Of a stretch of 64,000 nt of DNA, positions 11,281 to 17,124 are shown one piece after another. This stretch comes from Candidatus Gottesmanbacteria bacterium UBA6580 (lineage in GTDB: Bacteria; Patescibacteriota; Microgenomatia; UBA10105; UBA927). Each line of letters opens with the position of its first letter. The first letter of the stretch is position 1. The notes under the pieces were generated by a model that worked only from the letters and a program-made list of their open reading frames with translations, was not told the DNA's origin and did no database searches. The stretch is taken from contig DJJA01000003.1 in assembly GCA_002433895.1 (NCBI GenBank), forward strand, positions 447,745 to 511,744. The letters run 5' to 3'. A program made the translations under genes and the position numbers.

Positions 11281-12384
11281 ATGAATAGCGAAACAAAACT
11301 TTTTGCGGGGATGATTCTTGCCACTGTCGTTATTATTGCCGGTGCGGTGTTTGCGTTTAGCAGACCCACCAACGCGCCCAAGATTGATCCAAAATTATTG
11401 GTTGCCGAAGATAGTTATAAGTTGGGGTCTCCGTCCGCAACTGTCACTCTTGTGGAATTCGGGGATTATCAGTGTCCTGCCTGCAGCGCCTATCATACCG
11501 TGGTGAAGCGGCTTACTGAAACATACAAAGAATCGCTGACTCTCGTATTCCGTAATTTCCCATTGCCATCGCATCCAAACGCACTCCCTGCCGCCCGGGC
11601 AGTGGAAGCCGCTGGACTGCAGGGGAAGTTCTGGGAAATGTATGACAAAGTATATGAAACGCAGGCAGAATGGTCGACCGAGAAAAATGCGGCGGAAATA
11701 TTTGCAGGATACGCGAAAGACCTGGGTCTCGATGGCGAGAAGTTTTCCAAGGATATGAAAAGTGATGCGGTGCAAAAGCGAATTGACCGGGATATAAATG
11801 ACGCGAACGTATTGGGAGTTAACGCGACACCGACGTTTTACCTCAACAACGAAAAGATCCAAAATCCCGCGAGCTTCGAAGATTTTGAAACGCTTATAAA
11901 AGCAGCCATACTCAACGCTCCACAGCCGAGCGCGTCGGATGAAGCGTCATATCATATACACGCCAATATCCGCGTATTGGTAGACGGCACGCCGGTAAAT
12001 TTTTCCGAAAGTAAATATCAGTCAAAGGAAGGCGAAGAGCTTCATGAGTATATACATTTCCATGACGGGATAGGGAATGTGTTTCATGTTCACAAAAAGG
12101 GAATGAAGTTGAGTGATCTGTTCGGATCACTTGGTATGAACTTTAGCGGGAAGCCGTTTGCCATGTATGTTAATGGCAAGCTGCAGTCTTTAAATGAAGC
12201 ATATGAACCCCAGGATTTAGACCGCATATTGGTGGTTTCAGGCGGAAGCATGTCCGATACCGCGTTGCAATCGCAAATTGCCGCGGTTTCTGATGATGCG
12301 TGTATATATTCTGAAAAGTGCCCTGAACGAGGAACTCCTCCCTCAGAAGAATGCGTTGGTGGGCTAGGCACAAATTGCGAATAG
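11281..12384 (+). CDS. membrane-anchored DsbA-like thiol:disulfide oxidoreductase fused to a C-terminal His/Cys-rich domain of unknown function
   Basis: N-terminal TM anchor and a complete DsbA/thioredoxin domain (EFGDYQCPAC ... GVNATPTFYLN). The C-terminal ~170 aa carry His-rich motifs (HIHANI, HEYIHFHDG, FHVHKKG) and a terminal four-Cys cluster. Confidence 0.7.
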   Translation: MNSETKLFAGMILATVVIIAGAVFAFSRPTNAPKIDPKLLVAEDSYKLGSPSATVTLVEFGDYQCPACSAYHTVVKRLTETYKESLTLVFRNFPLPSHPNALPAARAVEAAGLQGKFWEMYDKVYETQAEWSTEKNAAEIFAGYAKDLGLDGEKFSKDMKSDAVQKRIDRDINDANVLGVNATPTFYLNNEKIQNPASFEDFETLIKAAILNAPQPSASDEASYHIHANIRVLVDGTPVNFSESKYQSKEGEELHEYIHFHDGIGNVFHVHKKGMKLSDLFGSLGMNFSGKPFAMYVNGKLQSLNEAYEPQDLDRILVVSGGSMSDTALQSQIAAVSDDACIYSEKCPERGTPPSEECVGGLGTNCE

Positions 12385-15662: not shown

Positions 15663-16073
15663 TTATTTTTCTTCACGCACGGAAATTTTTTTGGGTTGTG
15701 TTTTAGGGGATTTTGCAAAAGAAACAGTCATCACACCGTTTTTGACGGCCGCTTCCGGTTCTTTGTTGATATCAAGGTCGCCTGGTACCGCGACTCTATA
15801 TGAAAACATACTCGCCGCTTTGCGGTAGTATTTTTTTTCTTTTTCTTCGTTTTTGGCTTCGCCTTTGATCCAGACGACACCTTTGTCAAATGTTACCTCT
15901 ATGTCTTTGGGGTCAACTCCCGGAACCGCGACCTGTACGTATACATGGGTATTGTCCTCGGAAAGTGATAAGCCGCTCGGCCAATTGGTGAGCGTTCCCC
16001 AGTCTTCTTCATCTTCCCAAAGGTTTGGAACTGACGGGATCCGCCAGAATGAGCGGGGGACTAAATCTACCAT
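15663..16073 (-). CDS. Hsp20/alpha-crystallin family small heat-shock protein
   Basis: Alpha-crystallin domain pattern (VQVAVPG ... GVMTVSF). Start ATG at 16073 is preceded by AAGGAGGTGA 7 nt upstream. The ORF-track GTG start at 16097 is unlikely. Confidence 0.88.
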   Translation of the reverse strand: MVDLVPRSFWRIPSVPNLWEDEEDWGTLTNWPSGLSLSEDNTHVYVQVAVPGVDPKDIEVTFDKGVVWIKGEAKNEEKEKKYYRKAASMFSYRVAVPGDLDINKEPEAAVKNGVMTVSFAKSPKTQPKKISVREEK

Positions 16074-16122
16074 AATCGTATCACCTCCTTTCTTCACCCT
16101 TCTTCAATGTGTTAAGAAGGTC

Positions 16123-16260: not shown

Positions 16261-17034
16261 ATGAAAGAAAATGAAACCGCAGCCCGTCCGGCATGGCCAC
16301 AGATAACACTTGTCGTTTTACTCGTCATCGCTTCATTTATGTTGGGGTCCCTCTATACAAAAGTGCAATATCTTGAAGCAGGCGGTGCACCTGCCGCAGG
16401 TGGGGCAGTTAAGTCAAAATACAAATCTTTTGAAGACGCGATGGGCGCGTTTGCAAAGGCCGTAAAGATGGATTCAAAGAAGCTTCTTACGTGTATGGAA
16501 AGCGGCGAGAAAGCCGCGATAGTAAACGCGGAAACTGAGGAAGGGAGCACTGTGGGGGTGACCGGCACACCGGCTTTCCTTATCAACGGTAAGCTGTTGG
16601 GTGGGGCATTTCCTTATGAAAGTTTTAAGGAAGTAATCGATAAAGAATTGGCGGGTACGGGATCAGAAGATCCTGCTGATTATTCGAAAAACCTGCAGGA
16701 CGCAAATAAATCAGGAGCGTTCGATCCGAAGCCAAGAGTGGTTGCGGTGGGTAACTCGAGCGTGCGTGGCGGGAAAGCTGGCGCGCCGGTAACGATTATC
16801 GAATTTTCCGATTTTCAATGCCCATACTGCGGAAAAGCACATCCGACTGTGAAAAAAGTGCTGGCTGACTATGGCGATAAAGTAACACTGGTATTCAAGC
16901 ATTTCCCATTGGTAAGCATCCATCCGCGGGCCCAGAAATCCGCAGAAGCGGCTGAGTGTGCCAAGGATCAGGGTAAATTCTGGGAATTCCACGATCAGTT
17001 GTTTGATAACCAGACAGACTGGGCAAGTCTTTAA
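16261..17034 (+). CDS. membrane-anchored DsbA-like thioredoxin-fold protein with apparently circularly permuted domain order
   Basis: N-terminal TM anchor, then the C-terminal half of a DsbA domain (MDSKKLL ... GVTGTPAFLINGKLL), a linker, then the N-terminal half (IIEFSDFQCPYCGKAH ... QGKFWEFHDQLFDNQ) and a stop. Start chosen at ATG 16261; 16207 is an alternative. Confidence 0.65.
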   Translation: MKENETAARPAWPQITLVVLLVIASFMLGSLYTKVQYLEAGGAPAAGGAVKSKYKSFEDAMGAFAKAVKMDSKKLLTCMESGEKAAIVNAETEEGSTVGVTGTPAFLINGKLLGGAFPYESFKEVIDKELAGTGSEDPADYSKNLQDANKSGAFDPKPRVVAVGNSSVRGGKAGAPVTIIEFSDFQCPYCGKAHPTVKKVLADYGDKVTLVFKHFPLVSIHPRAQKSAEAAECAKDQGKFWEFHDQLFDNQTDWASL

Positions 17035-17124
17035 GAACATAATCGCGGATAAGTGCGGATGTGGTAAAGGGAAGAAATACCTAGTGCTAGTTTTCCAAGC
17101 GTGGTAACGTCCGTAAATCCCTTA

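What the first reader, a model, noticed from the sequence alone, without database searches (positions are those of the whole stretch)
16261..17034. DsbA-like protein with the two halves of the thioredoxin/DsbA domain in swapped (circularly permuted) order
After a TM anchor, residues ~50-130 match the C-terminal part of a DsbA domain (helical insert plus the cis-Pro loop region GVTGTPAFLINGKLLGGAFPYESFKEVIDKEL). A linker follows. Then the segment that normally opens the domain appears (PVTIIEFSDFQCPYCGKAHPTVKKVL ... AAECAKDQGKFWEFHDQLFDNQ), and the ORF stops. Only 90 nt of non-coding DNA lie downstream, before convergent ruvB, so a missing C-terminal half cannot be encoded there. The canonical unpermuted DsbA domain in the same window (11281-12384) is a direct comparison. 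The cause could be a genuine circular permutation (duplication then truncation at both ends) or a decayed tandem duplicate.
Basis: seen in the sequence. Interest (0 to 1): 0.6.

Follow-up and report, generated by a model that had tools for sequence, protein, structure and literature searches.

The report
Natural circularly permuted DsbA oxidoreductase
This gene encodes a membrane-anchored disulfide-bond enzyme (DsbA type) whose two halves are in swapped order yet are predicted to fold into the normal shape; it is a conserved natural version of a circular permutation so far known only as a laboratory construct.

Summary
ORF 16261-17034 (+), 257 aa, reads: TM anchor, then the C-terminal half of a DsbA/Thioredoxin_4 domain (aa 56-131, cis-Pro loop GTP), then a 33-aa linker, then the N-terminal half (aa 165-257, CPYC), then stop. 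It is not an artefact and not decay. More than 110 protein clusters from independent assemblies share the same order and the same ends. Synteny holds in six Gottesmanbacteria-type contigs. dN/dS against the closest ortholog is 0.014. No leftover half-domain lies nearby. AlphaFold2 (pLDDT 93) gives one compact domain. Its only significant PDB match is 1UN2, the engineered E. coli permutant cpDsbA_Q100T99, aligned end to end; natural DsbAs align over only half. A canonical-order control protein gave the opposite pattern. The cut lies in the H3-H4 loop of the helical insert. A covarying Cys pair (C78/C233), placed like the H2-H5 structural disulfide of M. tuberculosis DsbA, would bridge the two chain ends. 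The linker matches the N-terminal extension of canonical relatives, which fits duplication followed by loss at both ends. Two further permuted groups exist (Kerfeldbacteria, Woesebacteria). The Woesebacteria group clusters with canonical proteins at 99% bootstrap, which suggests independent permutations. Enzyme activity is inferred, not shown.

The parts
16261..17034 (+). Complete gene for the permuted DsbA-like protein (257 aa plus stop)
   Evidence: ORF list and sequence; full-length homologs at 53-96% identity; dN/dS 0.014 against L001
16294..16386 (+). N-terminal signal-anchor helix (aa 12-42; hydrophobic core aa 15-32; conserved KVQYLE-GG motif after it)
   Evidence: AF2 helix 12-42. The anchor motif is shared with Woesebacteria-type permuted and canonical proteins. 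Outside-facing topology is inferred.
16387..16425 (+). Gly/Ala-rich flexible tether (aa 43-55) between the anchor and the folded domain
   Evidence: The only low-confidence stretch of the model (pLDDT about 50)
16426..16653 (+). Segment 1 = C-terminal half of a canonical DsbA domain (aa 56-131): helices H4-H6 of the helical insert, cis-Pro loop, two strands, last helix
   Evidence: Pfam DSBA positions 120-190 of 191; half-domain HMM hit 16426-16653, E 9e-41; AF2 elements H57-67, H72-81, H85-97, E105-108, E111-114, H119-131
16492..16494 (+). Cys78 (helix H5 equivalent), inferred partner of Cys233 in a structural disulfide
   Evidence: Invariant in 112 family members. It covaries with the other Cys over 729 domain units: both 299, neither 426, one only 4. 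The H2-H5 position matches the M. tuberculosis DsbA Cys140-Cys192 disulfide (PMC3792642).
16567..16572 (+). Thr103-Pro104 of the cis-Pro loop (GTP)
   Evidence: G102, T103 and P104 are invariant
16654..16752 (+). Linker (aa 132-164) joining the old C-terminus to the old N-terminus; well ordered, with a short helix at aa 143-150 (DYSxxLQDA)
   Evidence: pLDDT 92-98; dN/dS 0.015. In the Woesebacteria-type pair the equivalent linker aligns with the pre-domain segment of the canonical protein P0373.
16753..17031 (+). Segment 2 = N-terminal half of a canonical DsbA domain (aa 165-257): first strands, active-site helix, third strand, helices H2-H3
   Evidence: Pfam Thioredoxin_4 positions 7-94 of 165; HMM hit 16768-17031, E 2e-51; AF2 elements E177-183, H188-207, E208-214, H224-236, H240-254
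16819..16830 (+). Active-site Cys187-Pro-Tyr-Cys190
   Evidence: Read from the sequence; both Cys invariant
16957..16959 (+). Cys233 (helix H2 equivalent), inferred partner of Cys78
17035..17124 (.). 90-nt spacer before convergent ruvB; encodes no DsbA remnant
11281..12384 (+). Canonical-order DsbA paralog in the same window, used as comparator (not part of the permuted gene)
   Evidence: Pfam Thioredoxin_4 positions 6-165 of 165 as one stretch; BLASTP gives two HSPs in swapped order

Best explanation
The gene encodes a functional, naturally circularly permuted member of the DsbA/BdbD (Pfam Thioredoxin_4) family of extracytoplasmic thiol:disulfide oxidoreductases. An N-terminal signal-anchor helix and a flexible tether hold it at the outer face of the membrane. 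The first folded segment supplies helices H4-H6 of the helical insert, the cis-Pro loop, the last two strands and the last helix. The second segment supplies the first strands, the CPYC active-site helix, the third strand and helices H2-H3. Together they form one ordinary DsbA fold. The chain ends lie in the H3-H4 loop of the helical insert. This is the same loop that was opened in the engineered E. coli permutant cpDsbA_Q100T99. A Cys78-Cys233 (H5-H2) disulfide probably ties the two chain-terminal segments together. Catalysis should proceed as in DsbA, by disulfide exchange from the CPYC pair to substrate cysteines, assisted by the cis-Pro loop. The re-oxidising partner was not identified. 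The arrangement most likely arose from a tandem duplication of the domain behind one anchor, followed by loss of the first N-half and the last C-half. The second copy's N-terminal extension was kept and became the linker. Shown here: the order of the halves, conservation, purifying selection and the predicted fold. Inferred: topology, the disulfide, oxidase activity and the evolutionary route.
For: The halves are in swapped order with an exact junction. The family has at least 113 permuted clusters among the top 120 hits, and all keep CxxC, GTP, C78 and C233. The gene order macB/ABC/HlyD, (hsp20), this gene, ruvB-ruvA-ruvC holds in L001-L006. For the window gene against L001, dN is 0.025, dS is 1.84 and dN/dS is 0.014; each of the C-half, linker and N-half gives 0.015 or less. 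AF2 gives pLDDT 93.2 overall and about 98 across the domain. In Foldseek against the PDB, the only hit with E<=0.001 is 1UN2 (cpDsbA_Q100T99), over 203 columns with TM 0.66. Natural DsbAs align over only 85-105 columns. In the control, the canonical relative P0373 gives 193 hits with E<=0.001, natural DsbAs aligned over 175-205 columns, and 1UN2 absent from the 50 best matches listed. The Cys pair covaries and sits at the H2/H5 positions of the solved M. tuberculosis DsbA structural disulfide. The permuted P0346 equals the anchor plus residues 173-254 plus residues 66-167 of the canonical P0373, at 55-60% identity. Tandem DsbA arrays are common.
Against: No experiment and no solved structure exist for this family; the fold is a prediction. 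The model coordinates could not be inspected, so the C78-C233 distance was not measured. No VKOR- or DsbB-like partner was seen in the window, although the screen was crude. No tandem intermediate from the same lineage was recovered. Oxidase versus reductase or isomerase cannot be decided from sequence.
Confidence: 0.85

Rival explanations
1. It is a decayed tandem duplicate or pseudogene: the remains of two adjacent DsbA domains that lost their outer halves and no longer make a working protein.
For: The architecture is what such decay would leave. Tandem DsbA proteins are common. One relative (L008, Amesbacteria) does look truncated, with in-frame stops upstream.
Against: dN/dS is 0.014 with saturated synonymous sites. 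The catalytic residues are invariant and the termini identical across at least 113 clusters. No half-domain remnants occur in any frame. The model is a confident single domain.
Confidence: 0.02
2. It is a misassembly or frameshift artefact in this window.
For: None was found.
Against: Independent assemblies from NCBI, JGI, ENA and Logan give the same order. Some of these contigs reach 1.2 Mb. Synteny is conserved.
Confidence: 0.01
3. The two half-domains do not pair within one chain. Instead they complement halves of a second chain, giving a domain-swapped dimer or oligomer, as happens in some trimeric or dimeric DsbA-like isomerases.
For: The 33-aa linker could allow swapping. Oligomeric DsbA-like proteins are known (ScsC, alpha-DsbA2; they appear among the hits). 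Only a monomer could be modelled.
Against: The monomer model is compact with pLDDT about 98, including the linker. It superposes end to end on the monomeric engineered permutant 1UN2. The linker corresponds to a segment that is already part of the monomeric canonical fold.
Confidence: 0.07
4. The fold is as described, but the protein acts as a reductase or isomerase (like CcmG, ScsC or DsbC) rather than as a DsbA-type oxidase.
For: Sequence alone does not fix the redox potential. ScsC-type proteins are among the sequence and structure neighbours. No DsbB or VKOR was seen nearby.
Against: The closest solved sequence relatives are oxidases: BdbD and the C. diphtheriae DsbA-type protein (PDB 4PWO/4PWP). 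There is no dimerisation or trimerisation arm, only one domain on a membrane tether. From memory, the same CPYC motif occurs in the oxidase S. aureus DsbA; this was not tested here.
Confidence: 0.15

Closest known systems
Engineered E. coli cpDsbA_Q100T99 (PDB 1UN2; from the random circular permutation study of Hennecke, Sebbel and Glockshuber 1999, cited in PMC13552848 and PMC3281007)
   Same: Same chain topology: the new termini lie in the H3-H4 loop of the helical insert and the old termini are joined. It is the only significant PDB match of the model and aligns end to end (203 columns, TM 0.66).
   Different: 1UN2 is a laboratory construct of a soluble gamma-proteobacterial DsbA with a short artificial linker, at 15% identity. 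The window protein is natural, membrane-anchored and belongs to the Thioredoxin_4/BdbD branch. It uses a 33-aa ordered linker derived from a native N-terminal extension, and it has an extra Cys pair.
BdbD (B. subtilis, 3EU3), C. diphtheriae DsbA-type protein (PDB 4PWO/4PWP) and TsdA, M. tuberculosis DsbA (Rv2969c): membrane-associated DsbA-like oxidases of Pfam PF13462
   Same: Best sequence relatives once the halves are put back in order (E 2.7e-17 to 1e-14). They share the CxxC, the cis-Pro loop and the helical insert. MtbDsbA has an H2-H5 structural disulfide at the equivalent positions.
   Different: All have the canonical N-to-C order. None is permuted.
Canonical Woesebacteria-type anchored DsbA (P0373, P0306 and at least 114 clusters) and their permuted relatives (P0329, P0331, P0333, P0346, P0358, P0364)
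   Same: They share the signal-anchor motif (..G.L..KV..LE.GG) and the Cys pair, and they show what the domain looks like before and after permutation.
   Different: The window protein (type A) lacks their two lineage-specific insertions (EIGGxDxFW and GTPGxFVxNxKGE). Its chain ends 7 residues later in the H3-H4 region. It never groups with them in bootstrap trees.
Tandem multi-DsbA proteins (two to six domains, 375-1196 aa; for example P0064, P0078, P0121-P0270)
   Same: They contain the same C-half to N-half junction, which is why they match the permuted profile. Domains of P0064 and P0078 are the nearest non-family neighbours of the window protein.
   Different: They keep complete domains at both ends, most lack the Cys pair, and their anchors differ.

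Membership tests
DsbA / Thioredoxin_4 (PF13462, PF01323) thiol:disulfide oxidoreductases | Significant sequence match to the family profile | tested here: met
   Thioredoxin_4 at 100.7 bits (cut-off 23.2) and DSBA at 70.5 bits (cut-off 25.6), each as two stretches
DsbA / Thioredoxin_4 (PF13462, PF01323) thiol:disulfide oxidoreductases | CxxC active site at the start of the first helix of the thioredoxin fold | tested here: met
   C187-P-Y-C190 sits at the start of AF2 helix 188-207; both Cys are invariant in 112 sequences
DsbA / Thioredoxin_4 (PF13462, PF01323) thiol:disulfide oxidoreductases | cis-Pro loop (Thr/Val-Pro) before the fourth strand | tested here: met
   G102-T103-P104 is invariant and precedes strand 105-108. 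The cis conformation itself cannot be tested here.
DsbA / Thioredoxin_4 (PF13462, PF01323) thiol:disulfide oxidoreductases | Thioredoxin fold with an inserted helical domain, as one compact unit | tested here: met
   AF2 pLDDT 93; Foldseek hits are all DsbA-type; full-length match to 1UN2. This is a prediction, not an experiment.
DsbA / Thioredoxin_4 (PF13462, PF01323) thiol:disulfide oxidoreductases | Colinear order of the domain as in the family model (strand-CxxC helix-strand, helical insert, cis-Pro, strands, last helix) | tested here: not met
   Profile positions 120-190 come before positions 7-94. Natural DsbA structures align over only half of the model. It is therefore a permuted variant, not a standard member.
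DsbA / Thioredoxin_4 (PF13462, PF01323) thiol:disulfide oxidoreductases | Extracytoplasmic location | tested here: inconclusive
   An N-terminal hydrophobic helix (aa 12-42) is followed by a flexible tether, and the same anchor occurs on canonical relatives. Orientation was not tested.
DsbA / Thioredoxin_4 (PF13462, PF01323) thiol:disulfide oxidoreductases | Oxidising redox potential, and re-oxidation by DsbB or VKOR | not testable with these tools
   No DsbB- or VKOR-like ORF was noticed in the 64-kb window by a crude TM plus CxxC screen. The rest of the genome is not available.
Circularly permuted DsbA with termini in the H3-H4 loop (so far only the engineered cpDsbA_Q100T99) | Old termini joined, new termini between helices H3 and H4 of the helical insert, global DsbA fold preserved | tested here: met
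   The junction is exact against canonical DsbA and BdbD. The chain ends after AF2 helices 240-254 (H3) and starts with helix 57-67 (H4). The alignment to 1UN2 is colinear over 203 columns. The canonical control behaves oppositely.
DsbA proteins with a second, structural H2-H5 disulfide (M. tuberculosis DsbA, Wolbachia alpha-DsbA1) | Non-catalytic Cys pair linking helices H2 and H5 of the helical insert | tested here: inconclusive
   C233 lies in the H2 equivalent and C78 in the H5 equivalent. The two Cys covary strictly. MtbDsbA Cys140-Cys192 links H2 and H5. The Cys-Cys distance in the model could not be read and no residue-level alignment to those structures was obtained.

The most novel reading that the evidence does not exclude
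DsbA has been circularly permuted more than once in nature. This happened at least twice, perhaps three times, within Patescibacteria (Gottesman/Levy type, Woesebacteria type, Kerfeldbacteria type). Each time the chain was opened in the same H3-H4 loop that laboratory permutation showed to be tolerant. Each time the background carried an H2-H5 disulfide that staples the new chain ends. The rearrangement is kept because it moves the membrane tether from the thioredoxin-sheet edge to the helical insert. That move would change how the active site faces the membrane or an unknown re-oxidising partner. It would also change the order in which the halves emerge during secretion.
Probability: 0.35. 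Interest if true: 0.7.

Novelty: new variant of a known kind. Interest (0 to 1): 0.55.

Why it matters
DsbA is the textbook disulfide-bond catalyst and a classic subject of protein-folding work, and its circular permutants were made in the laboratory. A conserved natural family with the same cut site shows that evolution has used this solution. The family comes with close canonical relatives, abundant tandem arrays and possibly several independent origins. That makes it an unusually complete natural system for studying how circular permutations arise by duplication and loss at both ends. It also allows tests of how a structural disulfide can compensate for a broken helical bundle, and of whether chain order matters for a secreted, membrane-tethered enzyme. 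In practice, these proteins are currently annotated only as 'thioredoxin domain-containing' or 'DsbA family' proteins, and linear domain models split them in two.

Tried and rejected

The profile search of 1.84 billion representatives was swamped by proteins with 3-8 tandem DsbA domains. It could not be used to count permuted clusters.

The look-up of encoding contigs had no record for the tandem protein P0064 and only a 1-kb contig for P0373, so neither gave context.

A synthetic 'anchor-N-C-N-C' query built from P0373 recovered 114 canonical relatives and four unrelated triple-domain proteins. It recovered no two-domain intermediate from the same lineage.

A crude TM plus CxxC screen of all window ORFs found no DsbB- or VKOR-like candidate.

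The promoter and terminator scan around the gene did not exceed shuffled expectation.

No solved homolog carrying both extra cysteines appeared among the printed sequence alignments. The disulfide therefore rests on covariation and on the equivalence of helix positions.

Five full-text literature searches found the engineered cpDsbA but no natural permuted DsbA. The library does not cover subscription-only papers, so an earlier description cannot be excluded.

The misassembly, frameshift and pseudogene readings were considered and rejected (see the rival explanations).

Full report
**1. What is in the sequence**

The + strand carries an ORF that ends at 17034. The ATG at 16261 gives a 257-aa protein whose start (MKENE...) agrees with the homologs.

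Pfam places aa 169-255 on positions 7-94 of the 165-position Thioredoxin_4 model. It places aa 57-126 on positions 120-190 of the 191-position DSBA model. The part that normally closes the domain therefore comes first, and the part that opens it comes last.

BLASTP against the canonical DsbA encoded at 11281-12384 in the same window gives two HSPs in swapped order. They are cp 154-256 against canonical 35-133, and cp 52-126 against canonical 132-206. The junction is exact to within one residue.

When the two parts are put back in canonical order, the sequence aligns as a single ungapped-in-register stretch to B. subtilis BdbD (query 18-186, chain 25-193, E 2.7e-17). No part of the domain is missing or duplicated.

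The stop codon is followed by 90 nt and then the end of convergent ruvB. A six-frame scan of the whole window with half-domain HMMs finds only four half-domains: N then C in the canonical gene, and C then N here. There is no remnant next to the gene.

**2. Not an artefact and not decay**

A search of 5.8 billion proteins returned more than 110 clusters of 240-295 aa at 53-96% identity and 91-100% coverage. They come from NCBI, JGI, ENA and Logan assemblies, and where named they are Gottesmanbacteria or 'Patescibacteria group'.

All 113 short proteins among the top 120 classify as C-half followed by N-half. They end at the same place (...NQxDWSSL). In an alignment of 112 of them the following are invariant: the CxxC pair (C187, C190), the cis-Pro loop G102-T103-P104, and two further cysteines, C78 and C233.

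Six genome contigs (L001-L006) keep the gene in the same place: after a macB-like permease, an ABC ATPase and a HlyD-like gene (plus hsp20 in some), and before ruvB-ruvA-ruvC. A Levyibacteriota genome (L007) has a full-length copy in another context.

Against the closest ortholog (L001, Candidatus Gottesmanbacteria UBA5942), dN is 0.025 and dS is 1.84, so dN/dS is 0.014. Each of the C-half, the linker and the N-half gives 0.015 or less. The gene is under strong purifying selection along its whole length.

**3. Predicted structure**

AlphaFold2 on the 112-sequence alignment gives mean pLDDT 93.2 and pTM 0.79. The model has these parts:

- a long N-terminal helix (aa 12-42), the signal anchor;
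- a disordered Gly/Ala tether (aa 43-55);
- one compact domain at pLDDT about 98.

In chain order the domain elements are three helices (57-67, 72-81, 85-97), two strands after the cis-Pro (105-108, 111-114) and a helix (119-131). An ordered linker with a short helix (143-150) follows. Then come strands (167-169, 177-183), the active-site helix (188-207), a strand (208-214) and helices 224-236 and 240-254.

Read in canonical order, the helices are H2, H3 | H4, H5, H6. The cut therefore lies between H3 and H4 of the helical insert.

Foldseek against the PDB found exactly one match with E<=0.001. It is 1UN2, 'circularly permuted cpDsbA_Q100T99', aligned over 203 columns with TM 0.66 normalised to the target. 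All natural DsbA-like structures (BdbD, 3GYK, PaDsbA2, BcfH and others) align over only 85-105 columns, that is, over one half.

As a control I modelled P0373, a canonical-order relative, from 70 sequences (pLDDT 86.6; about 98 in the domain). It gave 193 matches with E<=0.001. Natural DsbAs align to it over 175-205 columns, and 1UN2 is not among the 50 best matches listed. The ranking of 1UN2 first is therefore specific to the permuted chain order.

**4. The extra cysteine pair**

C233 lies in the H2 equivalent and C78 in the H5 equivalent. I extracted 729 DsbA domain units from all proteins fetched and counted the two positions:

| Domain order | Both Cys | Neither | One only |
|---|---|---|---|
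| Canonical | 152 | 426 | 2 |
| Permuted | 147 | 0 | 2 |

This is the pattern expected of a disulfide-bonded pair.

[quoted passage not shown] Wolbachia alpha-DsbA1 has a second disulfide in its helical domain (PMC3839904) and is the best structural match of the canonical control.

I infer that C78-C233 is the same structural disulfide. In the permuted chain it would tie the N-terminal folded segment to the C-terminal one, right next to the new ends. This is an inference, because I could not read the model coordinates.

**5. Origin**

Two more permuted groups turned up:

- Type B (Kerfeldbacteria; L010 and P0272-P0299, at least 29 clusters) has a different anchor and a 15-aa linker.
- Type C (Woesebacteria; P0329, P0331, P0333, P0346, P0358, P0364) has a linker of about 30 aa.

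Type C has close canonical relatives. P0346 (permuted) equals the anchor of P0373 (canonical), plus P0373 residues 173-254, plus P0373 residues 66-167, at 55-60% identity. The type C linker (KYSADKAAKLPKLTSSDHVRG) aligns with the segment that precedes the domain in P0373 (KLSAEEVKNIPPVSVDDHVRG). In the P0373 model that pre-domain segment is ordered and part of the fold. So the linker is not new sequence. It is the N-terminal extension of a second domain copy. This is what duplication followed by loss of the outer halves predicts.

The canonical family with this anchor is large: at least 114 clusters, of which 105 carry the WQKV-type motif. The window protein (type A) carries a recognisably similar anchor (GSLYTKVQYLEAGG, against GVLWQKVQYLEKGG in P0333).

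Tandem DsbA proteins with two to six domains are very common. All of the top 150 of 9,754 strong hits (E<=1e-30) in the representative library are such arrays. Domains of the two-domain proteins P0064 and P0078 are the nearest non-family neighbours of type A. I found no tandem intermediate carrying the type A/C anchor.

**6. One origin or several?**

I ran bootstrap neighbour-joining on 125 de-permuted domains (164 columns, 100 replicates).

| Grouping tested | Bootstrap support (of 100) |
|---|---|
| Type A monophyletic | 100 |
| Type C with canonical P0373 and P0306 | 99 |
| A+C | 0 |
| B+C | 0 |
| A+B+C | 0 |

Type C and its canonical relatives share two insertions that type A lacks. The type A chain also ends 7 residues later than types B and C: FWEFHDQLFDNQTDWASL against ...VFSG and ...VFGS.

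This favours independent permutations in the same loop, and I put that at roughly 65%. The caveats are that the tree is a distance tree on a short alignment, and that differential trimming after a single event is not excluded.

**7. Function**

All catalytic hallmarks of a DsbA-type oxidoreductase are present and invariant. The nearest solved relatives by sequence are extracytoplasmic oxidases (BdbD and the C. diphtheriae DsbA-type protein 4PWO/4PWP).

The most likely function is a membrane-tethered disulfide oxidase acting on secreted and envelope proteins. It would work as DsbA does. The only mechanical difference is that the tether enters at the helical insert rather than at the first strand, and that the CxxC half is made and exported last.

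The activity, the redox potential and the re-oxidising partner are not established. A crude screen found no DsbB- or VKOR-like ORF in the window.

**8. Novelty**

Five full-text searches found the engineered permutants (Hennecke et al. 1999, as cited in PMC13552848 and PMC3281007; PDB 1UN2) but no description of a natural permuted DsbA. The sources call these proteins 'thioredoxin domain-containing', 'DsbA family' or 'protein-disulfide isomerase'. NCBIfam has no model that covers them.

I class this as a new variant of a known kind. It is a clean and well-supported case, of moderate rather than high surprise. Natural circular permutations are known in many folds, and laboratory work had already shown that DsbA tolerates this one.

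Noticed in passing
window 11281-12384 (+): The canonical DsbA paralog carries a C-terminal extension of about 160 aa after the domain. It is His-rich (HIHANIRV..., HEYIHFHDGIGNVFHVH) and has a Cys-rich tail (CIYSEKCPERGTPPSEECVGGLGTNCE). The only Pfam hit there is a weak ThiS-like match. The extension is conserved in L001 and L002. Its function is unknown. It also lacks the H2-H5 Cys pair.
   Followed up: no
L010 3758-4507 (Candidatus Kerfeldbacteria JACQKH010000025.1); proteins P0272-P0299: A second permuted DsbA group (at least 29 clusters) with a different anchor, a 15-aa linker and a chain end 7 residues earlier than the window type. It is possibly an independent permutation.
   Followed up: partly
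proteins P0329, P0331, P0333, P0346, P0358, P0364 compared with P0373, P0306, P0388-P0505: A third permuted group (Woesebacteria type) nested among a large canonical family with the same signal anchor. This gives matched permuted and canonical proteins at about 60% identity.
   Followed up: yes
L008 4046-4531 (Candidatus Amesbacteria, 6.7-kb contig): Directly after a trxB-like gene lies a 161-aa ORF in permuted order. It lacks the anchor and the first helices, and in-frame stops lie upstream. It could be a truncated or decaying copy, or an assembly problem.
   Followed up: no
proteins P0121-P0270: There are very many proteins with three to six tandem DsbA domains (427-1196 aa), mostly lacking the extra Cys pair. 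A few start or end on a half-domain (NCNCN, CNCNC); these may be contig-edge fragments or real truncations.
   Followed up: partly
L002 (CAZNKB010000011.1) and L004 (CAZHOQ010000037.1): Both MAGs are labelled 'uncultured Gammaproteobacteria'. Yet they carry the same gene order as the Gottesmanbacteria contigs, with 67-93% identical neighbouring proteins. The taxonomic labels look wrong.
   Followed up: no
window 15663-16097 (-): An Hsp20/alpha-crystallin-like small heat-shock gene is transcribed divergently from the permuted DsbA gene. It is present in L001 and L004 but absent from L002, L003, L005 and L006.
   Followed up: no
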